From: a virus | DNA: 64,000 nt | IMG/VR virus record: IMGVR_UViG_3300025168_013179 | Coordinates: 1-64,000 of that record | Strand: one strand, 5' to 3' | Shown here: one piece after another, positions 11,102 through 58,091 of the stretch | How the letters are laid out: each line of letters opens with the position of its first letter | Position numbering within the stretch: the stretch's first letter is position 1 | Translations under genes and position numbers: made by a program | Notes under the pieces: model-generated | What the model saw: only the letters and a program-made list of their open reading frames with translations | The model's database searches: none | Told to the model about the DNA's origin: nothing

Positions 11102-11153
11102 GTTAGTGAAATATGCGCGTGGCACCTTCGGTGGAGAGAGATCACCCCCCCTC
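11102..11153 (-). repeat. GC-rich GAA-triloop hairpin element, copy A
   Basis: Minus strand: GGGTGATCTCTCTC-CACC GAA GGTG-CCACGCGCATATTTCACTAAC. Confidence 0.85.
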
Positions 11154-11757
11154 ATTCATAAGCTCTCGGCGAGGGCATGCCTGCATACGAACACCAATCC
11201 GGATCATCATACTGTCCCTTAAACCAATTCTTATACTCGGTAAGGTTCCATTGCTTACCCTCTAGCTTACAATACTGTTCGAAGTCTTGTTGATTAACCT
11301 CATACCCCCAATGTAATAATGATTGTTGTATCCTAGGTGATACATTCCAATTGCCTGTCTCTATCATTCTCTTATAGATCCTCTTCCTCCATCTACCGTT
11401 AACACCACAAAAGTCTTGCCATCGTCTAATCTGCCTATCGTCGTCTGGATGCCTTCTACCACTGGAGTACTTACAATACCATTCAAACCAACCATATGGA
11501 TCATCTTCATGCATCCATTTCATATCGCACCAATACTTATAGTCCATCCCACTCCTTACTTTATACTTATTCTTCTTAGGAGAGTACTTCTCTCCCTCGT
11601 ATAAGCTTCTATCTAACCCATCGAAATGGTATTTGAATAGTTGACAGTATTGAGTATCACCGCTTAGGTTCTCTTCTCCGAAGTAACTTCCTCCGAAAGC
11701 ACCTCTCTCTATCATCTCTCTAGGAGTTAATATAGGATAGAAGTCTAACTTACTCAT
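11152..11757 (-). CDS. Conserved uncharacterised protein of a family also seen in giant viruses and eukaryotes
   Basis: 'P.LTP.EM...G.FGG.YF', 'DPYGWF.WYC.Y..GRR..DD.RQI.RW', 'SPRI.Q.LLHW' motifs, recalled from memory. Confidence 0.65.
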   Translation of the reverse strand: MSKLDFYPILTPREMIERGAFGGSYFGEENLSGDTQYCQLFKYHFDGLDRSLYEGEKYSPKKNKYKVRSGMDYKYWCDMKWMHEDDPYGWFEWYCKYSSGRRHPDDDRQIRRWQDFCGVNGRWRKRIYKRMIETGNWNVSPRIQQSLLHWGYEVNQQDFEQYCKLEGKQWNLTEYKNWFKGQYDDPDWCSYAGMPSPRAYE

Positions 11758-11918
11758 TACTTAGTTGAATTTGCGCGTGGCGACTTCGTCGAGAGAGGAG
11801 AAACGCCCTCACTCTCCCTCAAAGCCTCTATATCAAACCCCCACCCTTGCAGAGCTTGATCTAATTTAAATTGTTTATCATCCATCCAATGCCACTCACT
11901 TGTACTGTTTATTATCAT
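11757..11918 (-). CDS. Small hypothetical protein (53 aa) whose 3' end reads through repeat copy B
   Basis: AAAGGTTATG leader; MIINSTSEWHWMDD...SPRANSTK. Confidence 0.45.
   Translation of the reverse strand: MIINSTSEWHWMDDKQFKLDQALQGWGFDIEALRESEGVSPLSTKSPRANSTK
11761..11810 (-). repeat. GC-rich GAA-triloop hairpin element, copy B
   Basis: Minus strand: GAGGGCGTTTCTCCTCTCT-CGAC GAA GTCG-CCACGCGCAAATTCAACTAA. Confidence 0.85.
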
Positions 11919-11927
11919 AACCTTTAT

Positions 11928-12161
11928 TTATAAATTATACTTCTTTTTATATATCTCTTTAAAGCTCTTACCCACTCCTAGTGCTACTATCTCATCATAG
12001 TAAGCTATTCTACTGGATCGTTTAGTAATAAGTTTATCAGGACAGTTGAGATCTTTAAAGACTCTTAGCTTCATTCTACCTCTTTGTCCTTTAGTTACTA
12101 CATAGATTGGTATGATCTTCTTTACCATACCCATTGTATTAGTACAGATACTAATGAACAT
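11928..12161 (-). CDS. Small basic hypothetical protein (true start probably internal)
   Basis: ORF track; overlaps upstream small ORF. Confidence 0.5.
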   Translation of the reverse strand: MFISICTNTMGMVKKIIPIYVVTKGQRGRMKLRVFKDLNCPDKLITKRSSRIAYYDEIVALGVGKSFKEIYKKKYNL

Positions 12162-12259
12162 ACAGCAGCTGCAAAAGCTGTTAGCAGAATTAACTTCATT
12201 GAATCGGTTTCTTTTTCCGGAGATCGTCCTTGATTGGACCTATATTGTCTTTTTTTCAT
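12122..12259 (-). CDS. Small membrane protein (45 aa)
   Basis: MKKRQYRSNQGRSPEK...+TM; AAAGGTTATG leader; not in ORF track. Confidence 0.6.
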   Translation of the reverse strand: MKKRQYRSNQGRSPEKETDSMKLILLTAFAAAVCSLVSVLIQWVW

Positions 12260-12283
12260 AACCTTTATTTTTAAACTGTTTAC

Positions 12284-12409
12284 TTATGCAATATACCTAC
12301 TCTTGCTCTTCCATATCACTCTATTGGAGGTACTGAAGAACTTCTTTCTACGGGCATTAGCATAGTCTAATCTTAGACCTTTTTGGTCTGGCATCATATT
12401 ACTGTTCAT
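12284..12409 (-). CDS. Small basic peptide (41 aa)
   Basis: ATG overlaps upstream stop; MNSNMMPDQKGLRLDYANARRKK... Confidence 0.4.
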   Translation of the reverse strand: MNSNMMPDQKGLRLDYANARRKKFFSTSNRVIWKSKSRYIA

Positions 12410-12630
12410 TTATTCTTAATTAATGTTCTTTGAATCTTTAGATAACTCTTTAAAAGACTAAACTGTTTTAAAATAGTCTTATTGTTACCTATAAATAGGT
12501 CAGAAAACCTATTCTTAACCAAGTCTACATAGGTTTCTGCTTGTTTTAGATGTATCATATTATCGCAGCTAGTAATCACTTTTAAGCTTTTCTCTACTGC
12601 AATAAAGAAGTTAGTTCTCATATTTGTCAT
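12406..12630 (-). CDS. Hypothetical protein
   Basis: Coupled ORF. Confidence 0.55.
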   Translation of the reverse strand: MTNMRTNFFIAVEKSLKVITSCDNMIHLKQAETYVDLVKNRFSDLFIGNNKTILKQFSLLKSYLKIQRTLIKNK

Positions 12631-13529
12631 TATGCTGAAACTTTATTAGTTACTACATTCCATTTTATGGAAGTATTTGCAACAGAGTCTTCGATATTAC
12701 TAACTCTTACTCTATCTTCATGGTAAGTATGTAAGTATTCTACCATTTCCTCAGTCTTGTTATCCCATCTTCTTAGCACTCTTTCTATAGTAACATTACA
12801 AGACTTACCTGAATAAGACATTTTATCTACCTTCATTTTCTTTATACTACCGAAGCCATAATCATATCTTACCTGTAAATAAGGTAAATCTTTAGAGGTA
12901 AATTCCACTCCTTCTTTAAGATCTCTCATTAAAGTATCGGTTTTAAAGTTCTTTCTATCCTGTATTATCTTATCAACATCCTTTCTAAGTTCAGATAACT
13001 CACTATTTAGTTTATCAAACTTTGCTCTAGTCTTCTCATATATCTTATTGATTGCACCTAATATGTCATCTTGATGATCAATTATCATCATAGCTAATCT
13101 ACCGTTAAACATAAACCTATCTAAAGTAGCTTTATCATAATGCTCTGAGTAAGAAGATGAACCTAAGCCTATCTTAGTAAATCTAGCAGCTCCAGACTCT
13201 TGACCTCTCCAATCATTACCTTCTATGTATACAGTACATAATCTATTTCTAGAGTACTTTTTAACCGTAACATAGTCATTTTTCTTTTCATCCCATTCTT
13301 CTTTCTCAAACTCTTCACCTTTAGCACTTACTTCCATATAAGAAGTAGAGTTACTAAAATGAATATCTTCTAGATCAGTTTCAAGACCTTTAAAGAAAGA
13401 AGTAACCTCTGCTACTATCTCACTATCTCTTTTCTTCTCTAGTTCATTCTTCTTACTGAAGATTATTTCTTTAGCATCTTCTAGCTTAGTTTGTTTTTCG
13501 TTTAACGCATTAAATATTGAATCTGACAT
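12630..13529 (-). CDS. Hypothetical early protein with coiled coils
   Basis: 299 aa; consensus promoter and leader. Confidence 0.65.
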   Translation of the reverse strand: MSDSIFNALNEKQTKLEDAKEIIFSKKNELEKKRDSEIVAEVTSFFKGLETDLEDIHFSNSTSYMEVSAKGEEFEKEEWDEKKNDYVTVKKYSRNRLCTVYIEGNDWRGQESGAARFTKIGLGSSSYSEHYDKATLDRFMFNGRLAMMIIDHQDDILGAINKIYEKTRAKFDKLNSELSELRKDVDKIIQDRKNFKTDTLMRDLKEGVEFTSKDLPYLQVRYDYGFGSIKKMKVDKMSYSGKSCNVTIERVLRRWDNKTEEMVEYLHTYHEDRVRVSNIEDSVANTSIKWNVVTNKVSA

Positions 13530-13561
13530 AACCTTTATTTGTTTTAAATTATTTATACTAT

Positions 13562-13593
13562 AAATATAAGAATACTTCTCCGACTTTCCAACT
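13562..13593 (-). promoter_or_regulatory. Early promoter
   Basis: AGTTG-N17-TCTTATATTT. Confidence 0.7.
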
Positions 13594-13622
13594 GTTTCAC
13601 TAGTTATTTCCTAAGAAAGTTA

Positions 13623-13859
13623 CTACCTTCTAACTTTATGGAGATTACTACCCCATCCAGTTCTTCTATCCATCGAAGCTATATCCTTAGCTACTTCTGG
13701 ATCTTTAATTACTTCTGTTTCACAATAATCAGTTTTACCTGAAATGATACTCCTAACGTACCACTTACTAGAAGTAGAGCAGCTAACACAAGTTTTAGTA
13801 CCCGGTATAGCTTTAACCCTCAACGGATTTATAGTCTCATTACATTTGATACAGTTCAT
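13623..13859 (-). CDS. DksA/TraR-type C4 zinc-finger protein
   Basis: 'CIKCNETINPLRVKAIPGTKTCVSC'. Confidence 0.75.
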   Translation of the reverse strand: MNCIKCNETINPLRVKAIPGTKTCVSCSTSSKWYVRSIISGKTDYCETEVIKDPEVAKDIASMDRRTGWGSNLHKVRR

Positions 13860-13860
13860 A

Positions 13861-14097
13861 CTAAAATGGTAATGGTTCGTCCTTTTTTTCTTTAGGAGTA
13901 AATGTTGGATTATCTAACTTACGATAATATGTTGAAGCAAACGGCTGTTCACCAATCTCTTTAACCTCTACATTCTGAGAGTGTCTTCTATTATCTATTG
14001 ATAATCTTAAATCATTAGCACGTTTCTTAGCCATATAATCATTATCGGCGTAAACATACATTTCCATAGTAACAACGTATCTTTTATTTTCGCTCAT
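13861..14097 (-). CDS. Hypothetical protein (C-terminal acidic-LPF tail)
   Basis: Ends 'DEPLPF', resembling an SSB-type tail. Confidence 0.5.
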   Translation of the reverse strand: MSENKRYVVTMEMYVYADNDYMAKKRANDLRLSIDNRRHSQNVEVKEIGEQPFASTYYRKLDNPTFTPKEKKDEPLPF

Positions 14098-14107
14098 ATT
14101 TTTAATT

Positions 14108-14305
14108 TTAGTAAAACATTCTATTCCAAGTCAACCAAGATGGTTCACTTACTTTCTGAGTACCTCTTAGAACGATACATCTATTACCATCCTCACTCAC
14201 ATCCACTAATGTATTATCTCCACAGTAGTCAGAACCAATTGCAGCTCTTAACTCATCAATCTTACCTAAACCATCCATCTCATCTTGAATACTTAAATTT
14301 ATCAT
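14108..14305 (-). CDS. Small early hypothetical protein
   Basis: Consensus promoter and leader. Confidence 0.6.
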   Translation of the reverse strand: MINLSIQDEMDGLGKIDELRAAIGSDYCGDNTLVDVSEDGNRCIVLRGTQKVSEPSWLTWNRMFY

Positions 14306-14333
14306 AACCTTTATTGTTTTAATTATTATACCT

Positions 14334-14365
14334 TAATATAAGAATAATACCTCGGGGAGGCAACT
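14334..14365 (-). promoter_or_regulatory. Early promoter
   Basis: AGTTG-N17-TCTTATATTA. Confidence 0.75.
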
Positions 14366-14389
14366 AGTTACTAAGTTATTTTTACTTAA

Positions 14390-14605
14390 TTAACTAATGT
14401 ATAGACTATTTGATTCAAACGTATCTTCATGAACCGTAACTTTATCATCCGCATAAGCTATCATTCCAATACCATCAGTATCTATTTGGTATTTATTCAT
14501 ACCTAAATAGGCAATTAGTTTAGCTGGACGATTAACTAGCTCACCATTGTGAGTTAATCCTTCCATGTAGAAAATGTCGTTTACTTTTAAATCTTTAATT
14601 GTCAT
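14390..14605 (-). CDS. Small early hypothetical protein
   Basis: 'MTIKDLKVNDIF'; consensus promoter and leader. Confidence 0.6.
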   Translation of the reverse strand: MTIKDLKVNDIFYMEGLTHNGELVNRPAKLIAYLGMNKYQIDTDGIGMIAYADDKVTVHEDTFESNSLYIS

Positions 14606-14639
14606 AACCTTTATTTTTATTTACTTATTAATTATACCT

Positions 14640-14670
14640 TAATATAAGAAGAATATCTCGGGGAGGCAAC
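14640..14670 (-). promoter_or_regulatory. Early promoter
   Basis: AGTTG-N16-TCTTATATTA. Confidence 0.7.
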
Positions 14671-14673
14671 TAT

Positions 14674-15003
14674 TTACAGTGAAAAGCTTTCACCACATCC
14701 ACACGTTCTATTTGCATTAGGATTGTTAAATACAAAACCTTTTCCATTTAATCCACCTGAGAATTCAAGGATAGTTCCTATAAGGTATAGAAAACTCTTA
14801 TTATCGACAATGATCTTTATACCATTGTCTTCATATACCTTATCGCTTTCCTCCATTTTACTATCAAAGTTTAAATCATATGAGAGACCAGAGCATCCTC
14901 CACTCTTAACTCCTACTCTAACGTAATCGTTTATGTGGCTAAGTCCATCTGCCTCCATAAGTTTAATTACTTCAGATTTAGCTTGTTCTGAGACTTTAAT
15001 CAT
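14674..15003 (-). CDS. iscA: Iron-sulfur cluster assembly A-type carrier (HesB/IscA)
   Basis: 'GGCSGLSY' and 'NPNANRTCGCGESFSL'. Confidence 0.95.
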   Translation of the reverse strand: MIKVSEQAKSEVIKLMEADGLSHINDYVRVGVKSGGCSGLSYDLNFDSKMEESDKVYEDNGIKIIVDNKSFLYLIGTILEFSGGLNGKGFVFNNPNANRTCGCGESFSL

Positions 15004-15010
15004 TTCTCTA

Positions 15011-15376
15011 TCATTCTTTCCAGTATGCTTGAATAAATATAATAGAAAAGCAAAGAAATAACTGTGCTCCTATCTTCCAAGTAAACGGTTCTTTAAAGTA
15101 GTACTGAATGAGTATGGCATAGCATATCATACCTAATGAAAAGCCTACGAATCTAGCTCCCCATATAGAACCTCCGTAACCTATCATGTTATACTTAGTA
15201 GCAGTCATAAATAAGTACGTAAGGGGAATAGCTAGTACATACCAACCCCACCAAGTCTCATCAAGTTTTGGATATTTAAATTGAAAATTGTGTTGATACC
15301 AAGCACCTACTTGACCTAAGATAGTCATAATAAGCCCTAATCCAATATAATACCAATTTAATTCACCTTTAGGCAT
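15011..15376 (-). CDS. Four-TM membrane protein (SMR/DMT-like size)
   Basis: Four hydrophobic segments in 121 aa. Confidence 0.55.
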   Translation of the reverse strand: MPKGELNWYYIGLGLIMTILGQVGAWYQHNFQFKYPKLDETWWGWYVLAIPLTYLFMTATKYNMIGYGGSIWGARFVGFSLGMICYAILIQYYFKEPFTWKIGAQLFLCFSIIFIQAYWKE

Positions 15377-15557
15377 AACAGGTGATTTTCTCGCTTTTAT
15401 CTAGTTTAATCAGATTTCTAACGATGACTTTACCGTAAGGTTTTTTAGATACCTTTTCATATCTATCTCTATCCAACATAATGTGGTAACCATCTATAAT
15501 GGAATCAGAGATTTTAGATGTAAGCTTAGAAGCTTTAACGTAATAACTATTTTTCAT
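15369..15557 (-). CDS. Small hypothetical protein
   Basis: ORF with promoter -7 box at 15578-15587. Confidence 0.5.
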   Translation of the reverse strand: MKNSYYVKASKLTSKISDSIIDGYHIMLDRDRYEKVSKKPYGKVIVRNLIKLDKSEKITCYA

Positions 15558-15622
15558 ATCATAACTTTTATTAATTATAATATAAGAAAATAATAGGTAA
15601 GAACCTAATTAAAACGGTAATA

Positions 15623-15778
15623 TTAATGTTTAGCTTTAACTGCTGCTATAAATTGACTAAAGATAGAGTTAATAGTAGATTTCTCACTATCAGAAGCTAC
15701 TCTTTTGGTTCCTGAGTATGCTGCTTCTTTGTTTTCTTTTGATCTATATGTTAGCCCAGCTATATCTGATTTTTGCAT
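15623..15778 (-). CDS. Small protein (51 aa), last gene of Hint operon
   Basis: MQKSDIAGLTYRSKENKEAAYSGTKRVASDSEKSTINSIFSQFIAAVKAKH; ATG 3 nt after upstream stop; not in ORF track. Confidence 0.65.
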   Translation of the reverse strand: MQKSDIAGLTYRSKENKEAAYSGTKRVASDSEKSTINSIFSQFIAAVKAKH

Positions 15779-15781
15779 AAT

Positions 15782-16159
15782 TTACTCTTCGTTTCTATTA
15801 ATAATCGAATCTCCATGAGCTCCTATTCCTTCTACATAGAAATGATTAGAAGTTTTAATATTATATAGTTTGTCTACTAATACATACTTACCTGTTATAT
15901 GCACATTATCTTCAGATTTTACCCAAGCTCCCTCCAACCATAAAGGATGGTCTCCAGTTACTTTAAAAACACCATAATCATACATTAGTATAGTATCGTT
16001 AATCTCATATACATGCTTTTCTAGTACTACTGAACCATGCTTTCTATCGTGAGATAAGAGTTTGTCACCTACTTTAACATCTTCTATATTCTTATGTTCC
16101 CTGAAGCCTAATGCAACTTTAGCTCCTGACATAAAACAGTTATAATTTTTAGTTTTCAT
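15782..16159 (-). CDS. Stand-alone Hint (hedgehog/intein-like) domain protein
   Basis: Block A 'CFMSGAKV', 'KNIEDVKVGD', block B 'VTGDHPLW', block F/G 'LYNIKTSNHFYVEGIGAHG'. Confidence 0.85.
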   Translation of the reverse strand: MKTKNYNCFMSGAKVALGFREHKNIEDVKVGDKLLSHDRKHGSVVLEKHVYEINDTILMYDYGVFKVTGDHPLWLEGAWVKSEDNVHITGKYVLVDKLYNIKTSNHFYVEGIGAHGDSIINRNEE

Positions 16160-16160
16160 A

Positions 16161-17951
16161 TTATATTAAATTTATGTTTCTTTTTTGTTTATTTCCTATT
16201 ATTGTAGTATACCCTTCTATATCTTTAACAACATTAAGTTCATTATGAGTAGTACCTGATGCAGGAATACCTTCTAGAATAAAATTGTCTTTAGTTTTTA
16301 AATTGTATAAACTTTTGACATACATAACTTTAGACTCCCAACCTAACTGCTCAGCATTACTCCATTCTCCATTAATAAATAACGGATGAGAATTGGTAAC
16401 TGTAATTTTACCGTTAGTATACATTTCAGTCATTTGATTAACATTATATATGTAAGTATCTTCTACTAAGCAATTCGTTCCGTTTTTTGTTAATACGTTG
16501 TCTCCTACTACGATATCCTGTATCTCTTTAAAACTTCCATCAGCCATAGTAACTCTACTTCCTGGCATAAAACATTTTCCTTTGTTATTGTGAAAAGCAA
16601 AGAAGAAAGGAGTATTTCCAGTAACAATATTATCAGTAGGTTCCAAGTTAACTGAGTTAAATGATCCTGTAGGAGTACTAAGGACTATCATTTTGTTTTC
16701 TTCTATATTTACTATGTTATTATTAATATCTATTAAGTAAATATCATCTTCTTCAATTTCACTGATAGCTCTAAATTTTATTTTATCTGAACCTGAGTCA
16801 TAAGATAGTACTGAAGTAGTAGGTCCTAAGTAGAACTTTTCATCAACACCTGACATTTTTAAACCGTAAATTATTCCTTCTGAAGCAGGATAAGAATCTA
16901 AATTAGAAACTACTGATGAACCGGTTATTTTTGATCCAGCAGGCCATACACTTCCAGTAATTTCGTATGAACTAAAAACAGTAGCATCATCTGTATCAGG
17001 CATACCTTCTACATGAAAAGATTTTAATACTTTTCCTATTGCTACATCTTCAAAAGCTAAATCTGCTCCAGAAGAAGATATGAAATGCTCTGTGCTGAAT
17101 AATCCTTCTCTTCTTTTAACTGACTTTACTATGCTTGTTGAAAATTCATAATGATGTTTAATACTAAGATCAGTATTAGAAGACATAGCTGTTATATCTA
17201 CCTGACTAGTTGTAGGAAGAGTAAATTTAGCATAACATATGCTTGTGCCTAAATTTAAAATATCTAAGTCAGATCCATAAGCTATAGAATAGTTTCTATA
17301 ACTCCAAGCTACGTTATCTGTAATAGATTCATCACTGATTTCATATGAGGATAGATATGCACTTCCGGTTAAACCTGATTTAGCAGTACTCCAGTTAGAT
17401 ACTTTCTTAAAACTGACATCGCTAGGCCATATTTTATTTTTAATTACTGCGTTAGGAACATTTTCAGAATAAGCATCTGTATTAATAGTATCGTAAGTTG
17501 TAGATCCAGATACTGCATAGAAAGGCACAATAGAACCCGAATGTCCAGCATCATGCATTAACTGTAATGGAGCAAAGGAATCTGCACAGTAAGTAGAATC
17601 TATTATAGCATTTTCGTTATAAGCTAATCTTAAAATAAATCTTTCAGAAGAATCGTCTATAGCATCAGGATAAATGTCGTTTAATCCAACCATAGACTGA
17701 CTAATAGAAACATCGGGTAACTGAACAGTCATTTTATCTACAAGATTACTTATAGATAGAATATGTAGTTCAGGTTTATAAACAAGAGTTAGATTAGTAT
17801 AAGACCCTGAAATAGCATCTACAAGAGGTTGCCAATTAAATTCATTGTCTAATATATCATCGTAAATAACTGTATCGGTATTGGTTTCTATTAACCTAAT
17901 GCTATTATCTCTAGCTTTGACATAGTCACTAGATATTAAAGTTCCTTTCAT
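16161..17951 (-). CDS. Circularly permuted ATP-grasp-like domain fused to two tandem Hint domains
   Basis: N-term 'SSDYV...IRLIETNTD', 'PNAVIK'; degenerate Hint ~aa283-455 ending 'FHN'; Hint from Cys460 'CFMPGSRVTMADG...TNSHPLF...LYNLKT'. Confidence 0.7.
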   Translation of the reverse strand: MKGTLISSDYVKARDNSIRLIETNTDTVIYDDILDNEFNWQPLVDAISGSYTNLTLVYKPELHILSISNLVDKMTVQLPDVSISQSMVGLNDIYPDAIDDSSERFILRLAYNENAIIDSTYCADSFAPLQLMHDAGHSGSIVPFYAVSGSTTYDTINTDAYSENVPNAVIKNKIWPSDVSFKKVSNWSTAKSGLTGSAYLSSYEISDESITDNVAWSYRNYSIAYGSDLDILNLGTSICYAKFTLPTTSQVDITAMSSNTDLSIKHHYEFSTSIVKSVKRREGLFSTEHFISSSGADLAFEDVAIGKVLKSFHVEGMPDTDDATVFSSYEITGSVWPAGSKITGSSVVSNLDSYPASEGIIYGLKMSGVDEKFYLGPTTSVLSYDSGSDKIKFRAISEIEEDDIYLIDINNNIVNIEENKMIVLSTPTGSFNSVNLEPTDNIVTGNTPFFFAFHNNKGKCFMPGSRVTMADGSFKEIQDIVVGDNVLTKNGTNCLVEDTYIYNVNQMTEMYTNGKITVTNSHPLFINGEWSNAEQLGWESKVMYVKSLYNLKTKDNFILEGIPASGTTHNELNVVKDIEGYTTIIGNKQKRNINLI

Positions 17952-17968
17952 ACTTAAAATGCTTTATT

Positions 17969-44860: not shown

Positions 44861-44861
44861 A

Positions 44862-47801: not shown

Positions 47802-47833
47802 TAAGATAAGAAAAATATCTATAAGAACCAACT
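47802..47833 (-). promoter_or_regulatory. Host-type promoter
   Basis: AGTTG-N17-TCTTATCTTA. Confidence 0.7.
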
Positions 47834-48989: not shown

Positions 48990-49015
48990 AATATTGTTTA
49001 TTATAAATAGTTAAG

Positions 49016-49688: not shown

Positions 49689-49693
49689 TATTA

Positions 49694-49725
49694 TAATATA
49701 AGAAAACTAATTCGATTAAGCAACT
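49694..49725 (-). promoter_or_regulatory. Host-type promoter
   Basis: AGTTG-N17-TCTTATATTA. Confidence 0.7.
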
Positions 49726-50207: not shown

Positions 50208-50221
50208 CTTAACTACATTAT

Positions 50222-50623: not shown

Positions 50624-50627
50624 GTTA

Positions 50628-50909: not shown

Positions 50910-50912
50910 TTC

Positions 50913-51488
50913 TTAGTCTAATAAAAACCCATATGGAGTAGATGTTATATCTTGTCCTATTGGAAAGTTTTCTAATCTCATTGATACTGTCATTGTTCTC
51001 TGAATATATGGATTGTAGAACTCTCCTTCAACAGTTAAACAAATTAATGAAGGGTCATAAAAATTATCTTCATCTGGTTTAACAATTTCTCCTACTATTA
51101 CTTCGTTCCAAACTATATACTCATCGTTACCAGGTATTTCTACACCAGCATATTTGTTATCTGGGCTTTCCCAAGTGTAAGTACCTACATCCAATAATGA
51201 ACCATCATCTACTGCATCTGAATCTAATAAGTACATTGCAAAGTGTTGTCTATCTAACCTTGCTTCACCATCATCTATTTGAAGATATAGAATAAATATT
51301 TTTCTTAGTTTACCATTAGCTCCTAATTGTTCTCCTCCAAAAGAAGTTACTATAGAGTATCTTTCATAGGGGTCAAATGAATCTCCATCTAAACTTATTT
51401 CAAATAATAGTTCTCTTTCTTCTGCTACATCATCTTTGGAACATCCAAGGAAAAGTATAAGCGTTAAAAATAGTATTAATTTTTTCAT
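50913..51488 (-). CDS. Lipoprotein
   Basis: 'LILFLGCSKDD' Bacteroidota-type lipoprotein N-terminus. Confidence 0.75.
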   Translation of the reverse strand: MKKLILFLTLILFLGCSKDDVAEERELLFEISLDGDSFDPYERYSIVTSFGGEQLGANGKLRKIFILYLQIDDGEARLDRQHFAMYLLDSDAVDDGSLLDVGTYTWESPDNKYAGVEIPGNDEYIVWNEVIVGEIVKPDEDNFYDPSLICLTVEGEFYNPYIQRTMTVSMRLENFPIGQDITSTPYGFLLD

Positions 51489-51496
51489 TATCTTTC

Positions 51497-52714: not shown

Positions 52715-52725
52715 AATAAATATTT

Positions 52726-52980
52726 TTATTTTTTACTGCCAAATATTTTTCCTGCTTCTGCTATACCGAATGAACCAAGAACAATATATACAAAAGAATC
52801 GTATATAAATTCATTGATTACTAAATCTTCACCTACATAACCTGTAACCAGGTCTGCAACTGCAAAAAGTACCATAATAGCGAATGCCATGAAACCAACT
52901 ACTGATTTTTCGTTGATATCATTTTTTTCTTTGAATATGTCTGTAAAAGCCATCCATTTAAGTTTTAAGTTATTAAACAT
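52726..52980 (-). CDS. Two-TM membrane protein (holin-like candidate)
   Basis: Two TMs, basic C-terminus; TATTTAT at 53013-53019. Confidence 0.5.
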   Translation of the reverse strand: MFNNLKLKWMAFTDIFKEKNDINEKSVVGFMAFAIMVLFAVADLVTGYVGEDLVINEFIYDSFVYIVLGSFGIAEAGKIFGSKK

Positions 52981-53034
52981 ACGAAAACAAGTTTAGGTGT
53001 AACGGTTTAATAATAAATAGCTAATATGACTAAT

Positions 53035-53055
53035 AAAAAAGAGGCCGAAGCCTCT
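53035..53055 (-). terminator. Intrinsic terminator
   Basis: Minus strand AGAGGC-TTCG-GCCTCT followed by a T run. Confidence 0.9.
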
Positions 53056-53100
53056 AATTATTTATCTGAATAAATTTCATCTTGTAATCCGGAGAATAAT

Positions 53101-53325
53101 CTACGAACTGAGATCCTTGATCTCTTTGGGTCTGAACTCTTCATTGACGTGTCCACAGTCTCGGCAGTTAAAGACCGGGATGGGGATGTAGGATGTTTTG
53201 CCTGTTCCTGTAAGGATTCCTGAGGCTTTTCTGAGAATGAGTCCTTGTTCAAAGTAGACTCCTCCGCATTTTTCGCAGGTGACTGATTGGGTTTGGGTGA
53301 TATCGACATTTAACTGGTTGTGCAT
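53101..53325 (-). CDS. Zinc-ribbon protein
   Basis: 'CEKCG...CRDCGH'. Confidence 0.75.
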   Translation of the reverse strand: MHNQLNVDITQTQSVTCEKCGGVYFEQGLILRKASGILTGTGKTSYIPIPVFNCRDCGHVNEEFRPKEIKDLSS

Positions 53326-53347
53326 AACTTGTTTTTTTATACTAAGA

Positions 53348-53605
53348 TTATTTCTTAGCTTTAGGCTTGCGACCTCTTCTTTTTCTGCCTTTTACAGCTT
53401 TTACTACGTCTTTAACTTCCGCTTTTACAACCTTTGCTCTAGCTTTAACTTCAGCAACTGTTTCTTTGACGTCTTCTACAGCATCTTCTACTGCATCAGG
53501 GATTAGATCTCCATCGGAGTCTTTAATTTTTCCGGCTTTAACGAAATAGATAGTCACTCCTCCTGAAACGAGCAATATACCTAGAATAATAAAAATAGTG
53601 TTCAT
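53348..53605 (-). CDS. Small N-anchored membrane protein with basic tail
   Basis: TM, 'DSDGDLIPD', 'KRRGRKPK'; TATTTAT at 53620-53626. Confidence 0.65.
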   Translation of the reverse strand: MNTIFIILGILLVSGGVTIYFVKAGKIKDSDGDLIPDAVEDAVEDVKETVAEVKARAKVVKAEVKDVVKAVKGRKRRGRKPKAKK

Positions 53606-53616
53606 AGTAATTGTTT

Positions 53617-54150
53617 TTAATAAATAGATTGTTTAGACATTTTAGTCGGCTGCCAGTAAGTTCCGTATTTTTTTTCCATTCTAAAATAGAAATCAGCTAA
53701 ATCTTTAGCACTAGTATTAAGTACTTCTTTATCGTATTGCTCGCTAGTAATTTTAAACTTAACTAAAAACAGACGTTTAATATCATCTAGTTTTCTATCT
53801 TCTTCTTTTTCGTGATCTTCTAATAGTCTTTTCATTCTAGCTCTATCTATGGAAGTCTCTTGATGATACTTACTATGATCTACTTCCCCTCCTGTAGTAA
53901 TAGCAGATAAGTATTTATCATTCATATTATGCTGTACTAACTCCATCTCCATTAGATAGGGACCTACTTCGAAGTCACCATTGAGAATTCTATCTATAAG
54001 AGGTTTACGTTTATCGAGAGGTTTATTCTTAGGGGTATAGCTTCTCCACCACATAAATCTATCGTAAGGCTTTTTAAAGTAACGTTTAGATAAAGTACGT
54101 TCTATAAAAGACCTAGTAAATTTAGGCTTCATTGGTAAGATATGTTCCAT
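53617..54150 (-). CDS. Hypothetical protein
   Basis: Promoter at 54155-54186. Confidence 0.6.
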   Translation of the reverse strand: MEHILPMKPKFTRSFIERTLSKRYFKKPYDRFMWWRSYTPKNKPLDKRKPLIDRILNGDFEVGPYLMEMELVQHNMNDKYLSAITTGGEVDHSKYHQETSIDRARMKRLLEDHEKEEDRKLDDIKRLFLVKFKITSEQYDKEVLNTSAKDLADFYFRMEKKYGTYWQPTKMSKQSIY

Positions 54151-54184
54151 AAGTAAATATAAGAAAATTTACTCAAATAAACAA

Positions 54185-54694
54185 CTATAAAAATTTATAT
54201 TCAGTAAAGCCGCATTGTCTACTTAATATAGAAGAAGCTCGATTCCAATCATCGTTATATAGGTACTGAATATCTTTATTATAATAGTCAAAATTATATC
54301 TAATTCCTTGACGATAAAATTTAATAGCTGAAGAAGCTTCAGGTTTTTCTTTCGATAAAAATGCTCCACCTGCGTAAATCGTATTATCTTCTAAAATACA
54401 ATTAGAGGATTTCCAGTCTGTAGTTATATGTTTATCGTTAGTCCAGTGCCACCCTAAAGGTTTTTCTTCAAACATCCATAAATGACATACAGAGCCGAAT
54501 TCAAGTCTTTTTTTAAATTCATCTATATCAGGACAGTCTTTCCATTCCAATTCGTTATTAATTTTCTTTATAACATCAGTAGCATTAAAATACCATTCTC
54601 TATAATGATTTTTAGAAAGAGGTTGAAACCAGTACCTATCGTCGTATTCATAACCACGTTGATCAGATTTATGTAACCTTAATTGTGTTTTCAT
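54185..54694 (-). CDS. GNAT-fold acetyltransferase-like protein
   Basis: C-terminal 'DDWNRAS....QCGF' GNAT motif B. Confidence 0.6.
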   Translation of the reverse strand: MKTQLRLHKSDQRGYEYDDRYWFQPLSKNHYREWYFNATDVIKKINNELEWKDCPDIDEFKKRLEFGSVCHLWMFEEKPLGWHWTNDKHITTDWKSSNCILEDNTIYAGGAFLSKEKPEASSAIKFYRQGIRYNFDYYNKDIQYLYNDDWNRASSILSRQCGFTEYKFL

Positions 54695-55209
54695 TAGTAA
54701 AGTGTTTTTCGTTCTTTAAATTTTTTAGTATAGAAAACTATAAGTGATTTACGTCTGCCTTTAGTGACTTTACTAACTGAATGTATAGTTTTAGCACCAT
54801 CATAAATAATATAATCACCAGGTTTGTTTAAATCAGCATTCTTATCTCCTATAATAAGGTCTCCTCCTATACTATTTTTTTCTAGGACCAATGATAATGT
54901 AGTTCTAGAATTAGTATCAAGATGAGGTTCACCAAAGTCTCCTTTTGAAAATTCAACTGTGTAGATAGATTGTATATCTCTTGTGTTACCCTTAGTGATA
55001 TCATGTAATAAACTATTTAAGTTTTTATTCTCTATACTGAAGTGAATTAAGTTAACATTTTGAAATCTAAATCCTTTTTCCTCTGTTCTTTTTTTATGAA
55101 ATGGATTAAGAGCATTTCTTCTTTCCATTTCTTCTACACTAGCTAGAGGGGTAATTGATAGTTGATATAAAATACTATCTAATTTTTCTTTAGATAATTC
55201 CTTCTTCAT
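54694..55209 (-). CDS. 2OG-Fe(II) oxygenase
   Basis: 'HLD', 'GGDL', 'HSV.KV.KG.RKSL'; start moved to MKKELS. Confidence 0.85.
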   Translation of the reverse strand: MKKELSKEKLDSILYQLSITPLASVEEMERRNALNPFHKKRTEEKGFRFQNVNLIHFSIENKNLNSLLHDITKGNTRDIQSIYTVEFSKGDFGEPHLDTNSRTTLSLVLEKNSIGGDLIIGDKNADLNKPGDYIIYDGAKTIHSVSKVTKGRRKSLIVFYTKKFKERKTLY

Positions 55210-55411
55210 CGCATGCAATTTGAAGTCCAACTAAAAGAGAAGCTCCATTATACTCTTTTTGAACTTCTGCTGCTCTTTCAGTTACTGTAGCTATCTTTCC
55301 GGCACCAACTGCTGATGCTATCAATTCTAATATTTCTTTTTCTCTTTTCTCTTCAGGACATAGTAAATTTGATGTAGGATTTTCTAAGTACTTTTTTACT
55401 GAATCACTCAT
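55190..55411 (-). CDS. Hypothetical protein
   Basis: 'MSDSVKKY' ORF, coupled. Confidence 0.55.
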   Translation of the reverse strand: MSDSVKKYLENPTSNLLCPEEKREKEILELIASAVGAGKIATVTERAAEVQKEYNGASLLVGLQIACDEEGII

Positions 55412-56028
55412 TATATAATTGTTTTAGGTTTAATTGGTTTTCTATATTTCTTACTAGGGTGAAGCATATCTCTTAATTTTACTTTATCTAAATCTAAATC
55501 AATTTGATCTACAATGCTATTAAAAACAGTTATATCTTCTGAGTATAAGTCTTCATATAGAATATACGATTTTTTATTCAAATAAGCAACTGCCTTAACT
55601 TCTTCTACACATTTAGTCATATGTTCAACAACCCATTTATCCATAGTGATATTTAATGGATTAAAAGTATAGCTCATATGCCATTTAGACACTGTAGGGT
55701 ATTTCGCATTTTTGAGTTCTTTGTTATTTATAGCCCATTGAAAACTTTCTATAGCAAGCTTAGCATTTTTTCTAGTTAAGTAAATTACTTTATCAAATTT
55801 ACTTATATAGTTCAAATACCATTTACGAGGTCTATGAACACTTAAAACCTTAACAATTTTATTATTCGAAATATTGTTGCCTTTATTATTTATCTGGTCT
55901 TCGGTTAAGCCTTTTATATTTAACGGATTGAAAGGTTCTAAAGAGAATTTAAATTTAAGTAACTTAGCTAAAGCATAAGTAAGTTCGGTAGAACCTGATC
56001 TAGGCGATGCAAAAATTAAGATTTTCAT
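55411..56028 (-). CDS. Sulfotransferase-like P-loop protein
   Basis: 'SPRSGST' 5'-PSB motif, 'EPFN', 'LTRKN...S', 'YEDL'. Confidence 0.7.
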   Translation of the reverse strand: MKILIFASPRSGSTELTYALAKLLKFKFSLEPFNPLNIKGLTEDQINNKGNNISNNKIVKVLSVHRPRKWYLNYISKFDKVIYLTRKNAKLAIESFQWAINNKELKNAKYPTVSKWHMSYTFNPLNITMDKWVVEHMTKCVEEVKAVAYLNKKSYILYEDLYSEDITVFNSIVDQIDLDLDKVKLRDMLHPSKKYRKPIKPKTII

Positions 56029-56561
56029 AAAAAAGTATCTTTAAATATGCTCTTAAATTCTTCGTAACCATTAGCAGCATTTTCTTTCCATTTATCAATG
56101 TCACCATCATCACTAACCCATTTGTAACTGTGACAAAAAACTCTAGCTGTTTGACATGCTTTAGCAATACCGTACAACTCCATATCAACAATATCTATAT
56201 CGTCTCTATAATGAAAAGTATTAGATTGTGCTTTTTTACTTTTATCATAGAAATGATCAGTAGTACAGCAAATTATATCTCCTTTGCCTTGTAAAGTTAT
56301 ATCTACATCGTTAGTTAAATTCATTACGTCTAAATCATTAATGACTTTACCTATCTTAAACACCTCTCCTATAGGAATATCTTTAACAGCCCCGCAAGAG
56401 CCAAAGTTTACTACTAATTCTGGTTTATGAATATTAATTAGTCTTGCTGTTTCTACAGCTGCATTGACTTTACCGATACCGGTAATATGTATTTCGTTAT
56501 CAAACAAATAAGAATCGCCATGTTCTAGATCTGTAGCTGATAGTAGTAAAATTCTACTCAT
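56025..56561 (-). CDS. Nucleoside phosphorylase/MTA-SAH nucleosidase family
   Basis: 'GIGKVNAA', 'NFGSCG', 'VDME', 'K.VSD'. Confidence 0.88.
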   Translation of the reverse strand: MSRILLLSATDLEHGDSYLFDNEIHITGIGKVNAAVETARLINIHKPELVVNFGSCGAVKDIPIGEVFKIGKVINDLDVMNLTNDVDITLQGKGDIICCTTDHFYDKSKKAQSNTFHYRDDIDIVDMELYGIAKACQTARVFCHSYKWVSDDGDIDKWKENAANGYEEFKSIFKDTFL

Positions 56562-57033
56562 ACTTAATTAAAGACTTTACGTTAGAATCTGCTATTCCTA
56601 TATCAATTAAACAGACCTTGCCGATCACATCATAGCCACACGTATACGCAAGCTCTTCCGCTGCCTCCATTGTACCTCCAGTAGCAAATACATCATCGAC
56701 TAGCACTATAGAACCAGAACCAGGGGCCATCTCTAATGAACCAGAAGCATATTCATATTGATAGTCTAAAGTAAATAGATTTTTATCTGGCAGTTTACCA
56801 GGTTTTCTTATTAACTTAACTCCTCCTTGTCTCATAGCAGCTATACCGGCTGCAAATAAAAATCCTCTTGATTCGATTCCTACCCAGTAATCAGGGGATT
56901 CATCCATCGAGCTCATTTGCATGCAAGCATGTGTAAAAGCATCTGAGTTAGCTAATAAAGGTTGAATGTCTCTATATACTATTCCGTCTACAGGATAGTC
57001 GTATATTTTTTTAATGTATTTTTTTAGGTCCAT
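56554..57033 (-). CDS. apt: Adenine phosphoribosyltransferase
   Basis: 'DYP..GI.YRDI.PLL', 'ESRGF', 'RKPGKLP', 'VDDVFATGGT'. Confidence 0.93.
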   Translation of the reverse strand: MDLKKYIKKIYDYPVDGIVYRDIQPLLANSDAFTHACMQMSSMDESPDYWVGIESRGFLFAAGIAAMRQGGVKLIRKPGKLPDKNLFTLDYQYEYASGSLEMAPGSGSIVLVDDVFATGGTMEAAEELAYTCGYDVIGKVCLIDIGIADSNVKSLIKYE

Positions 57034-57057
57034 ACTATAATATATGAAAATATTAAG

Positions 57058-57741
57058 TTATATCAAACTGTTATTAATAAGTAAATCATAATTATTTTTA
57101 ACTCCTATCATATTTAAGTTATACTCTTTTGCTAATATTGTAACAGCAGTTCCTTCCCCAAACCCTATACCATTCTTAGCATACCTACTTAAATAGGTTC
57201 TAGACCAATCAGCTGTTTCAGAGTTAAAAATGCCTTCAATGTGGGCTTGTAACTCTTTACTACGGCACGCGATCTCTATAGTTTTTGATGAATATGGAAA
57301 AGAAAGAAAAGCTTCGGTTATATAATTGAATGGTTTATCTAATCCATGCTCGGTCATAAATGCAAAATACTCTTTATACGCATTATTCCGTCCTTTAAGT
57401 CTATTTAACTTTGTTAAATGTTTAGGTATAATAACAGATGAGTAAAAAGCAGAGTCGTTCTCTACTATCAGCTTATTAAAATTAACTCTCAGAAAATCAG
57501 CATCAACATAATTTACTCTCTCTTTATACTCCAGCAATAGCTTAAATAAGAACGTTAACTTTGAATAGTAACTAAATTGAGATCTTCCTATTACCTCCTC
57601 ATATTGGTAACTAATACAATTATCGAAATATTGCGGTTGGTCGGTTAGTACGTGAACGGTATCAATTTTACCTACTTTATTAATCTCTTTACCAAACCTT
57701 TTTATAAACTCTGCACCATGACAGACAGTTGCGTATAACAT
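57058..57741 (-). CDS. GT-A-like protein
   Basis: 'VLTD.P', 'K', 'YVDAD'; TATTTAT at 57747-57753. Confidence 0.45.
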   Translation of the reverse strand: MLYATVCHGAEFIKRFGKEINKVGKIDTVHVLTDQPQYFDNCISYQYEEVIGRSQFSYYSKLTFLFKLLLEYKERVNYVDADFLRVNFNKLIVENDSAFYSSVIIPKHLTKLNRLKGRNNAYKEYFAFMTEHGLDKPFNYITEAFLSFPYSSKTIEIACRSKELQAHIEGIFNSETADWSRTYLSRYAKNGIGFGEGTAVTILAKEYNLNMIGVKNNYDLLINNSLI

Positions 57742-57809
57742 ATATAATAAATAGAAAATTTATTGAGACTACCAAACTTTTTAACACTTTTTTTTATATT
57801 TATTAAAAT

Positions 57810-58040
57810 ATGGGAAGTATTATTGATTTAATAGATTTGTTTAACGAAGATAGAGGTGATTCTATCTTTTACTTCTTTGCTGGTTGTATGGTTGCTATAA
57901 TTATTTCTGCTTGGTGGCTTGCAAAACGCTCTTTTGATAACCCTGAAAATACTTTCCATAGATATTTCGATGAAAATGGAGATGAATTTGTAAAAAATAA
58001 AAAGGGTAAATTAATAAAAAAACCCCACCGATTAGGGTAG
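57810..58040 (+). CDS. Small membrane protein
   Basis: Single TM; TATTTAT at 57797-57803 on plus strand. Confidence 0.6.
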   Translation: MGSIIDLIDLFNEDRGDSIFYFFAGCMVAIIISAWWLAKRSFDNPENTFHRYFDENGDEFVKNKKGKLIKKPHRLG

Positions 58041-58044
58041 GGTT
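58016..58044 (-). terminator. Intrinsic terminator of chaperone operon
   Basis: Minus strand AACCCTACC-CTAATC-GGTGGGGTT followed by a T run. Confidence 0.75.
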
Positions 58045-58091
58045 AGTTCAAAATGCGCGTGGCGACTTCGTCGAGAGAGAAAAACGCCCTC
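58043..58091 (-). repeat. GC-rich GAA-triloop hairpin element, copy C
   Basis: Minus strand: GAGGGCGTTTTTCTCTCT-CGAC GAA GTCG-CCACGCGCATTTTGAACTAA. Confidence 0.85.

What the first reader, a model, noticed from the sequence alone, without database searches (positions are those of the whole stretch)
11102..58091. Dispersed ~50-nt GC-rich element with a covarying GAA-triloop hairpin
Seen: three co-oriented copies (11102-11153, 11761-11810, 58043-58091). Minus-strand consensus is GAGGG..GT..CTCTCT-[stem-GAA-stem]-CCACGCGCA.WTT..ACTAA. The stem is CGAC/GTCG in two copies and CACC/GGTG in the third, so there are two compensatory base-pair changes. Copies A and C start right at a stop codon, and C sits just before a terminator. 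A degenerate inverted copy lies at 7657-7700. Established: C-GAA-G triloops form unusually stable ssDNA mini-hairpins and are used as protein-recognition signals (e.g. N4 virion RNAP promoters, single-strand priming signals). Inference: a conserved structured DNA or RNA signal, such as a priming/origin site, processing site or recombination site.
Basis: partly seen in the sequence, partly recalled or inferred. Interest (0 to 1): 0.75.

Follow-up and report, generated by a model that had tools for sequence, protein, structure and literature searches.

The report
Conserved hairpin signal in Flavobacterium phages
A roughly 55-base GC-rich element with a tiny, strictly conserved GAA-looped hairpin occurs one to three times per genome, always on the gene strand, in a group of large Flavobacterium phages; it is a real, undescribed nucleic-acid signal at gene junctions, but its job has not been shown.

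Summary
The three minus-strand copies are real. They belong to a family (here "E") found in 80 or more distinct copies in uncultured relatives and in the cultured Flavobacterium phage vB_FspM_immuto.

E has this layout:
- a G-run
- a CUCUCUC tract
- a 3-6 bp stem closed by C-GAA-G
- an invariant CACGCGC box
- an A/T-rich tail

Main results:
- **Hairpin.** It covaries cleanly: 99% paired, four pair types at one position, no one-sided changes.
- **Copy number and range.** Complete genomes of 160-173 kb hold only 1-3 copies, all in sense orientation. No curated Rfam family matches. No bacterial genome carries E.
- **Contexts.** There are three: right after a stop codon and before a terminator (most conserved, after an Hc1-like gene next to GroEL); 14-20 nt before a start codon; and in frame inside a small ORF, where a third covarying hairpin follows.
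- **Inverted copy.** The claimed copy at 7657-7700 is not a member.

Best reading (about 0.4): a transcribed, protein-recognised RNA signal acting at operon ends and gene junctions, affecting termination read-through or downstream expression.

Rivals: a single-stranded-DNA mini-hairpin signal like IncQ ssiA or G4 oric; a recombination or mobile junction; a hairpin promoter.

The function is untested. The scan has noted C-GNA-G hairpin boundary elements in other phages before.

The parts
11099..11171 (-). Copy A of element E. G-run 11151-11145; CT-run about 11140-11134; hairpin CACC-GAA-GGTG 11133-11123; box CACGCGC 11121-11115; A/T tail. A third hairpin P3 (CATAT...ATATG) follows down to about 11093.
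   Evidence: Sequence. Model hit E = 2.2e-20. P3 covariation in the A-type subfamily.
11757..11829 (-). Copy B of element E. Hairpin CGAC-GAA-GTCG 11791-11781; box 11779-11773. It lies in the 3' end of ORF 11757-11918. The TAATG stop/start overlap with ORF 11152-11757 comes 15 nt after the box.
   Evidence: Model hit E = 1.7e-20.
58039..58111 (-). Copy C of element E. It starts directly after the TAG (58095-58093) of the Hc1-like gene. Hairpin CGAC-GAA-GTCG 58073-58063; box 58061-58055.
   Evidence: Model hit E = 6.3e-21. The same site is occupied in 27 of about 33 close relatives of the Hc1-like gene that were fetched without reference to E.
58016..58044 (-). Intrinsic terminator 12 nt after the box of copy C (CCCTACC-CTAATC-GGTGGGG plus T7). 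It probably serves both strands, because the plus-strand ORF 57810-58040 ends here.
58093..58260 (-). 55-aa basic Hc1-like (histone H1-like) gene downstream of GroES/GroEL. It is the most conserved upstream neighbour of E.
   Evidence: Weak Pfam hit to PF07432, E = 0.0045, below the curated cut-off. Synteny.
11152..11757 (-). 201-aa ORF of unknown function, flanked by copies B and A. Its C-terminal about 60 aa are homologous to a small ORF 'S' that carries E in frame in related phages.
10607..11098 (-). Non-coding, A/T-rich stretch of about 490 nt after copy A, ending in an early-type promoter (about 10665-10625) for ORF 10325-10606. Blocks of it are conserved in 13 or more related phages. It is either an extension of E's context or a separate feature.

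Best explanation
E is a transcribed, cis-acting RNA signal of Immutovirus-like Flavobacterium myophages.

**Proposed fold.**
- A G.U-rich hairpin P1 (G-run with CUCUCUC).
- A short hairpin P2 with an invariant C-GAA-G tip.
- A single-stranded CACGCGC box and an A/U-rich tail.
- Then a third hairpin, an intrinsic terminator, or the next start codon.

**Proposed action.** A phage or host protein reads the fixed loop and box. It acts at a few operon ends and gene junctions. Most likely it changes what RNA polymerase does at the terminator that follows (read-through, as at lambda nutR-tR1 or HK022 put). It may instead, or also, affect the stability or translation of the adjoining cistron.

**By-product.** Because the same 55 nt sits at several junctions, it also serves as a crossover point for gene shuffling.

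**Shown here:** the family, its structure, strandedness, copy number and contexts.

**Inferred:** that RNA is the active form, that a protein partner exists, and the effect on termination or expression.
For: **Family and covariation.**
- 83 model hits, 80 distinct. P2 cells are 99.3% paired, with no one-sided changes and four pair types at one position.
- A search pattern that left the hairpin unspecified still returned hairpins in nearly every true copy.

**Transcription context.**
- All copies are in sense orientation, at 1-3 per complete genome.
- About 95% of copies are directly preceded by coding sequence, with no promoter or terminator, so E is transcribed with the upstream gene.
- At least 11 contexts have a strict intrinsic terminator within about 12-15 nt after the box. 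About 12 more have a hairpin there.
- The C site is conserved after the Hc1-like gene in 27 of about 33 independently fetched relatives.

**Structures that fit RNA.**
- P1 is rich in G.U pairs, which can form only on this strand. RNA folding predicts P1 as the dominant helix.
- A-type copies carry a third A/U-rich hairpin. It is 93.8% paired against 7-39% in slid controls, and four pairs are changed on both sides. Some of these changes are synonymous codon changes.

**Nucleic-acid selection, not protein selection.** The nucleotide sequence is kept in all reading frames and in non-coding sites.
Against: - Two independent contexts (L041/L205 and L283) put E directly after a strong terminator. 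An RNA element there would be made only by read-through.
- P2 is only 3-6 bp. Nearest-neighbour energies are marginal, -2 to -3 kcal/mol, and no better than shuffles.
- P2's invariant C-GNA-G tip is the rule for extra-stable DNA mini-hairpins, not RNA ones (PMC13037366).
- G.U intermediates are almost absent in P2 (1 of about 310 cells).
- P1 cannot be tested properly, because any G pairs with any pyrimidine.
- Hairpin-less variants persist at the orthologous site (L298, L303/304).
- No N-like, Q-like or NusG-like gene was found in the phages. No binding protein is known.
- In several loci the genes after the E-terminator pair have their own promoter, so read-through is not needed there.
- No transcript data were available.
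Confidence: 0.4

Rival explanations
1. E works as single-stranded DNA on the non-template strand. The C-GAA-G mini-hairpin, flanked by a pyrimidine tract and a CGCG-rich tail, is a protein-recognition signal exposed in R-loops, at replication forks or in the transcription bubble. It would be a priming or origin signal for the phage DnaG/DnaB system, built like IncQ ssiA or G4 oric. Alternatively it would be an ops-like signal read on paused RNA polymerase.
For: - The loop and closing pair follow the d(C-GNA-G) rule exactly: GAA in about 80 copies and GCA in one.
- Such DNA hairpins are far more stable than the RNA versions. They occur in G4 oric, RSF1010 ssiA (CCGAAGG) and N4 promoters (PMC13037366).
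- ssiA, read from an IncQ-like plasmid, is CCTTTC + hairpin tipped with CCGAAGG + CGCGTG... This is the same order of parts as CTCTCTC + hairpin + CCACGCGC.
- Stems of 3-4 bp without G.T pairs suit DNA.
- The context-independence (coding, non-coding, after terminators) is easy to explain.
- 1-3 copies per genome fits origins.
- The G-rich transcript could favour R-loops.
- A conserved A/T-rich non-coding block follows A-type copies.
- The phages encode DnaG and DnaB.
Against: - No RepB'-type or PrimPol primase was found. The RepB' search had no positive control.
- All copies are on one strand, whereas ssiA and ssiB are an inverted pair.
- GC skew shows no origin-like switch at E.
- The P1 G.T pairs and the A/T-rich P3 with an internal loop would be very weak in DNA, yet P3 covaries.
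- The most conserved site is simply the 3' end of an operon.
Confidence: 0.25
2. E is mainly a recombination or mobile junction. It is a short portable sequence at cassette borders that spreads or mediates gene shuffling, like PeSLs of T4-type phages or in-frame palindromic elements of Rickettsia. It has little function of its own.
For: - A clean 66-nt in-frame presence/absence difference carries E in a homologous small ORF: L077 and L036 are filled, L179 is empty.
- The 201-aa gene, the S ORF and E are arranged differently in the window and in relatives.
- E is joined at a fixed 14-20 nt to the start codons of many unrelated genes.
- Two copies flank one gene in the window.
- Tandem copies lie about 100 nt apart in L036 and L077.
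- PeSL precedent: PMC2839356 and PMC4122927.
Against: - Copies within one genome are usually not alike in the stem (window A against B and C; L040, L114, L117, L138, L203). Spread is therefore not recent and there is no concerted evolution.
- There are only 1-3 copies per genome.
- Orthologous copies are kept with compensatory changes across phages whose DNA polymerases are only 69% identical. This shows purifying selection on structure.
- No Y1 transposase was found.
Confidence: 0.15
3. E is a hairpin promoter or transcription start signal for a phage-modified or phage-encoded polymerase, in the style of N4.
For: - In B-type copies E sits 14-20 nt before start codons.
- In two contexts E lies between a terminator and the next gene, where a promoter would be expected.
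- Conserved flanks plus a 3-nt-loop hairpin resemble N4 P1-P3 (PMC13037366).
- A weak sigma-like ORF exists at 5360-6064.
Against: - No RNA polymerase is annotated in the first 150 kb of immuto's 160-kb record, and the largest CDS there is about 1265 aa.
- Eleven or more copies are followed at once by an intrinsic terminator.
- Many copies lie inside ORFs.
- The GAA loop is on the non-template strand, whereas N4 uses the template strand (own knowledge).
- The leader would be only about 15 nt.
- A separate early promoter motif of the Bacteroidota type, TTG-N19-TATATT, already serves this region.
Confidence: 0.08
4. E is only a conserved coding motif (..GEGAFLSPPKVPRAFSTNV..) and the hairpin is incidental.
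For: E is in frame in 9 of 9 S ORFs, although hairpin length varies.
Against: - The most conserved copies lie after stop codons, in inconsistent frames.
- Stem changes alter the encoded residues radically while keeping the pairing.
- The box is invariant at all three codon positions.
Confidence: 0.02

Closest known systems
Lambda-type nut sites (boxA + boxB) and HK022 put RNAs: cis-acting antitermination signals in nascent RNA (own knowledge)
   Same: - Few copies per genome.
- Sense orientation.
- Position between the stop codon of a small early gene and a terminator, as in cro-nutR-tR1.
- A pyrimidine-rich tract followed by a short hairpin with a purine-rich loop whose stem covaries while the loop stays fixed.
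- Adjacent hairpins, as in put.
   Different: - The loop is a GAA triloop, not the GNRA-like pentaloop of boxB.
- There is no boxA consensus.
- No N, Nun or Q homologue was found.
- The host is a Bacteroidota member.
- E also occurs inside ORFs and right before start codons.
- There is no sequence similarity.
Single-strand initiation signals: RSF1010/IncQ ssiA and ssiB (RepB' primase) and G4-type oric (DnaG) (PMC8567376, PMC13037366)
   Same: - A pyrimidine hexamer or heptamer lies 5' of a hairpin tipped by the CCGAAGG/C-GAA-G mini-hairpin.
- A CGCG-containing tail follows 3' of the hairpin (ssiA read).
- Size is 40-55 nt.
- Few copies per replicon.
   Different: - ssiA has a 9-bp stem, E only 3-6 bp.
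- The tail is CGCGTG in ssiA and CACGCGC in E, which is the reverse complement.
- ssiA and ssiB are an inverted pair on opposite strands, whereas all E copies are on one strand.
- No RepB'/PrimPol gene was found.
- E lies in transcribed, often coding, sequence.
PeSL (promoter-early stem-loop) cassettes of T4-type phages (PMC2839356, PMC4122927)
   Same: - A conserved short motif at the borders of small genes in the plastic early region of a T4-related myovirus.
- Associated with insertions, deletions and gene replacements.
- Often next to a terminator and an early promoter.
   Different: - PeSLs are themselves a terminator plus a host-type early promoter and occur in many copies.
- E is neither a terminator nor a promoter and occurs 1-3 times per genome.
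- E's own small hairpin is kept by covariation.
- The early promoter motif of these phages is a separate sequence: 16 copies in immuto and 4 in this record.
Early promoters P1-P3 of coliphage N4 (PMC13037366)
   Same: - Three copies.
- Conserved flanks.
- A short stem with a 3-nt purine loop (GGA or GAA).
   Different: - No virion RNA polymerase gene is annotated.
- The loop is on the non-template strand.
- Many copies are followed by terminators or lie in ORFs.

Membership tests
Any Rfam 15 RNA family | Match to a curated covariance model | tested here: not met
   There were 0 matches at gathering score over the whole window. There were 0 matches at E <= 10 over 10300-12000.
Lambda nut site | boxB: 5-bp stem with a 5-nt GNRA-like loop (GAAAA/GAAGA) | tested here: not met
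   The loop is the 3-nt GAA in about 80 of 83 copies, and the stem is 3-6 bp.
Lambda nut site | boxA consensus (CGCUCUUUA) 5' of boxB | tested here: inconclusive
   A CU-rich tract (CUCUCUC) lies 0-2 nt before the hairpin, but it is not the boxA sequence. The Bacteroidota boxA is not known to me.
Lambda nut site | Cognate N-type antiterminator protein encoded by the phage | tested here: inconclusive
   The ORFs next to E have no informative Pfam, PHROG or NCBIfam hits. No NusG paralogue was found. The small basic Hc1-like gene upstream is a candidate only by position.
IncQ ssiA/ssiB | Hairpin tipped by the CCGAAGG mini-hairpin, with a specific 5' hexamer and a 3' priming tail | tested here: inconclusive
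   The tip is identical or of the same C-GAA-G type, and a pyrimidine tract and a CGCG tail are present. However, the stem is 3-6 bp against 9 bp, and the tail sequence is the reverse complement.
IncQ ssiA/ssiB | RepB' (AEP-type) primase in the same replicon | tested here: inconclusive
   PF16793 gave no hit in 5 phage records, but the control genomes gave none either. Prim-Pol PF09250 gave no hit and its controls were positive. Only a DnaG-type primase is annotated in immuto.
IncQ ssiA/ssiB | Two copies in inverted orientation on opposite strands | tested here: not met
   All copies in all five complete or near-complete records are on the gene strand.
N4 early promoters | Virion RNA polymerase (about 3500 aa) that reads a template-strand hairpin | tested here: not met
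   No RNA polymerase is annotated in the first 150 kb of the 160-kb immuto record, and the largest CDS there is about 1265 aa. The GAA loop is on the coding strand.
PeSL | Composite terminator stem-loop plus host-type early promoter, many copies flanking genes of the hyperplastic regions | tested here: not met
   E holds no -33/-7 or -35/-10 motif and has no T-run. It occurs 1-3 times per genome. The early promoter motif is a separate element.
REP/RAYT or IS200/IS605-type hairpin elements | Y1 (HUH) transposase in the genome and many near-identical copies | tested here: not met
   PF01797 gave no hit and its controls were positive. Copy number is low and the stems differ within genomes.
Site-specific nick sites of T5-type phages | Strand-specific interruption of virion DNA at a fixed sequence | not testable with these tools
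   Considered only because all copies are on one strand and the box contains GCGC (own knowledge of T5). Testing needs virion DNA.

The most novel reading that the evidence does not exclude
E is a new kind of bifunctional signal. The non-template DNA strand (mini-hairpin, pyrimidine tract, box) and the G-rich nascent RNA together set up a transcription-primed replication start or a polymerase-loading site. This would be a phage analogue of R-loop origins combined with an ssi-type priming hairpin. The adjacent Hc1-like protein or the phage DnaG would recognise it.
Probability: 0.1. Interest if true: 0.85.

Novelty: new variant of a known kind. Interest (0 to 1): 0.55.

Why it matters
Regulatory and replication signals of phages that infect Bacteroidota are almost unknown. 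Their hosts use unusual promoters and make little use of Shine-Dalgarno pairing.

E is a sharply defined, low-copy, strand-specific signal with clean covariation. It is present in a cultured phage-host pair (vB_FspM_immuto with Flavobacterium sp. LMO8), so its function can be tested directly.

E also bears on a wider question: are C-GNA-G mini-hairpins in double-stranded-DNA phages read as DNA or as RNA? The fact that E sits in frame inside genes and at shuffled gene borders makes it a marker for how the plastic early regions of these phages are rebuilt.

Tried and rejected
- **Known RNA families.** Rfam gave nothing at gathering score or at permissive thresholds. No tRNA or tmRNA was found.
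- **Close phage DNA match.** None found.
- **Inverted fourth copy at 7657-7700.** Rejected.
- **Diversity-generating retroelement (VR/TR ends).** Rejected, because the sequences upstream of the three copies are unrelated.
- **Pseudoknot between the P1 loop (GCGU) and the box (ACGC).** No covariation; the loop GCG is lost in several copies while the box never changes.
- **Alternative hairpin GAAGGUGC/GCAUUUUC predicted by single-sequence folding.** Not supported; the A/T tail varies independently of the stem.
- **Translational bypass, read-through or an intron in the 201-aa gene.** Rejected; the S ORF is open and in frame through E in 9 of 9 cases.
- **Host-derived element.** Rejected. A scan of one genome for each of about 185,000 bacterial and archaeal species found only a mis-binned 1.7-kb phage fragment.
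- **GC skew as an origin marker.** Uninformative, because skew follows the coding strand throughout.
- **Nearest-neighbour folding energies.** Not significant for the short hairpin in DNA or RNA. Covariation, not energy, is the evidence.
- **Function of the 201-aa ORF.** Protein-family and atlas searches gave nothing.
- **CRISPR-repeat mimic and sigma-54 promoter readings.** Considered by eye and dropped for lack of fit.

Full report
**1. The observation**

The window is the first 64 kb of a 97,786-nt IMG/VR virus record. CheckV estimates it as 59% complete. GC content is about 31% and nearly all genes are on the minus strand.

Read on the minus strand, the three reported sites share these parts:
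- a G-run
- CGTTT/TGAT
- CTCTCTC
- a 4-bp stem with a GAA loop
- CCACGCGCA
- a W-rich tail ending ACTAA

The stems are CGAC/GTCG in B and C and CACC/GGTG in A, so two adjacent pairs are changed on both sides.

The pattern GAAGNNNCCACGCGCA occurs three times on one strand of the whole record. It does not occur on the other strand or in the reversed control.

A and C begin directly after stop codons. C is followed after 12 nt by a terminator found by the consensus scan. B lies in the end of a 53-aa ORF, and the next ATG comes 15 nt after the box.

The 'degenerate inverted copy' at 7657-7700 shares 13 nt only, cannot form the hairpin, and is not found by the covariance model.

**2. A family, and whose it is**

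Two pattern scans of IMG/VR were run. The second left the hairpin unspecified. Besides chance hits in GC-rich contigs, they returned dozens of true copies in contigs of 31-44% GC.

A covariance model built from 29 copies found 83 copies, 80 of them distinct, in 69 loci.

- **Copy number.** The model finds 1-3 copies in each of four complete 167-173-kb genomes, all on the gene strand.
- **Nearest cultured relative.** This is Flavobacterium phage vB_FspM_immuto (Immutovirus, 160 kb). Its DNA polymerase is 69% identical in amino acids. It carries E after its GroEL-adjacent small gene, plus a hairpin-less remnant at 64.8 kb.
- **Outside these phages.** A scan of one genome for each of about 185,000 prokaryote species found only a mis-binned phage fragment.
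- **Rfam.** No match.

**3. Structure**

*Hairpin P2.* On the 83-copy alignment, 99.3% of hairpin cells are paired. One position shows A-U, G-C, C-G and U-A; another shows C-G and A-U. There are no one-sided changes. This alignment was fitted to the model, but the same result is plain in the raw sequences.
- Stem length is 3-6 bp.
- The closing C-G is invariant.
- The loop is GAA, except for one GCA (L117) and one TTT (L158).
- The CACGCGC box is invariant, although both search patterns contained it.

*Helix P1.* A G-run/CU-run helix is possible and is the main helix in single-sequence RNA folds. It is full of G.U pairs and cannot be tested, because G pairs with either pyrimidine.

*Hairpin P3.* A-type copies have a third hairpin just after the box: an outer 5-bp stem, an inner 2-3-bp stem and a tetraloop. 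It is 93.8% paired against 7-39% in slid controls, and four pairs are changed on both sides.

*Energies.* Folding energies of the short hairpin are marginal in both DNA and RNA models.

**4. Contexts**

*C-type.* A stop codon is followed by E and then by a terminator or hairpin, sometimes followed by an early promoter.
- The upstream gene is a 55-60-aa basic Hc1-like protein next to GroES/GroEL.
- Relatives of that gene were fetched without reference to E. Of about 33 close relatives, 27 had E at the stop codon and three had it about 900 nt further on.
- Three relatives had a plain terminator (GGGGGGCGTTTGCTCCCC plus a T-run) instead.
- Three relatives had E without the hairpin.
- Relatives at 60% identity or less had no E.

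*B-type.* E is followed after 14-20 nt of A/T-rich spacer by the start codon of various unrelated genes. The upstream ORF often reads through E.

*A-type.* E lies in frame in a small ORF 'S' (..GWGFD.EAL.GEG-AFLSPPKVPRAFSTNV-..EEWCSYAGMPSPKAYM).
- It is in frame in 9 of 9 cases, despite different hairpin lengths.
- S is homologous to the C-terminus of the window's 201-aa ORF, which lacks E.
- A homologous small ORF exists with E (L077, L036) and without it (L179). The difference is a clean 66-nt in-frame indel.

*Upstream of E.* Nearly all copies are preceded by coding sequence without a promoter or terminator. Two contexts (L041/L205 and L283) have a strong terminator directly upstream.

*Downstream of E.* Strict terminators follow 11 of 75 copies, and weaker hairpins follow about 12 more.

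**5. What it most likely is**

Selection acts on the nucleic acid, not on a peptide:
- The sequence is kept in non-coding sites and in different reading frames.
- Stem changes are compensatory but alter the encoded residues.

E is not a recently spreading repeat:
- Copies within a genome usually have different stems.
- Orthologous copies have diverged by compensatory change.

*For an RNA signal:*
- E is transcribed with the upstream gene.
- Its orientation is always sense.
- It sits just before terminators.
- P1 contains G.U pairs.
- The covarying P3 is A/U-rich.

*For a single-stranded-DNA signal:*
- The tip obeys the d(C-GNA-G) mini-hairpin rule exactly. The RNA forms are much less stable (PMC13037366).
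- The stems are very short and have no G.U pairs.
- E tolerates any transcriptional context.
- The design is shared with IncQ ssiA. ssiA was read from a plasmid contig as CCTTTC + CCCCTACCC-GAA-GGGTGGGGG + CGCGTGTGCAGCC (PMC8567376).

*Gene content of the phages:*
- A DnaG primase and a DnaB helicase are annotated in immuto.
- No RNA polymerase is annotated in the first 150 kb of the immuto record.
- No NusG paralogue, PrimPol or Y1 transposase was found.
- A weak sigma-like ORF is present.

I commit to these estimates:

| Reading | Confidence |
|---|---|
| Transcribed, protein-read RNA signal at operon ends and gene junctions, with recombination at E as a by-product | about 0.4 |
| Single-stranded-DNA signal | about 0.25 |
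| Pure recombination or mobile junction | about 0.15 |
| Hairpin promoter | about 0.08 |

**6. Comparison and novelty**

E is not a member of nut, put, ssi, N4-promoter, PeSL or REP families. For each, at least one defining feature fails or cannot be shown (see the membership table).

E works most like a nut/put-type or ssi-type signal, and it behaves in genome evolution like a PeSL. It is an undescribed family restricted to Immutovirus-like Flavobacterium phages.

Earlier notes of this scan describe C-GNA-G hairpin boundary elements in unrelated phages, and a reading of copy C as a three-way-junction RNA. I treated them as leads only.

Noticed in passing
window 10607-11098 (minus strand): A non-coding A/T-rich stretch of about 490 nt follows copy A. 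It has blocks conserved in 13 or more related phages, for example TCTGAGGTAGTnTAGACTTTGG, GTAGATAAAGGGTAA, GACTATTAATAATAG.TAGTGT and long ATATA-type runs. It could be a replication origin or a long non-coding RNA. Rfam gave no match.
   Followed up: partly
window about 10625-10665, 14363, 14669, 23702 (minus strand); immuto 60.9-76.2 kb: A recurrent early-promoter-like motif, TTG-N17-21-TATATTAAGGTA, resembles the Bacteroidota -33/-7 type. It is followed by a fixed start region, AATAAAGGTTATG. There are 4 copies in this record and 16 in immuto, all on the gene strand and clustered in the small-gene region.
   Followed up: partly
window 11152-11918 and loci L101, L116, L204, L210: In relatives, the 201-aa ORF is split. 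Its N-terminal about 165 aa end in one frame, and a small ORF 'S' homologous to its C-terminus starts in another frame, overlapping by about 40 nt. In the window the gene is continuous, and the 53-aa ORF upstream looks like the N-terminal half of S. This could be a fused or split gene pair, or a frameshift site.
   Followed up: partly
L077:2585-2760, L036:5690-5870, L179:10990-11110: A clean 66-nt in-frame insertion or deletion carries the CT-run, hairpin, box and tail of E directly after the codons GGG TGG GGG TTT (GWGF). The host codons supply the G-run of that copy.
   Followed up: yes
window 5360-6064 (minus strand): A 234-aa ORF has a weak Sigma70_r2 match (E = 0.002, below the cut-off). 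It is conserved in position in two related genomes. It is a candidate phage sigma factor, about 5 kb downstream of copy A in the direction of transcription.
   Followed up: no
window 57810-58040 (plus strand): A 76-aa plus-strand ORF with a hydrophobic segment converges on the terminator after copy C, which would then serve both strands.
   Followed up: no
L291-L293 (relatives), just after the Hc1-like gene: Where E is absent, the site holds a terminator, GGGGGGCGTTTGCTCCCC plus a T-run. This resembles the G-run, CGTTT and CT-run half of E. The 5' half of E and this terminator may therefore share an origin.
   Followed up: no
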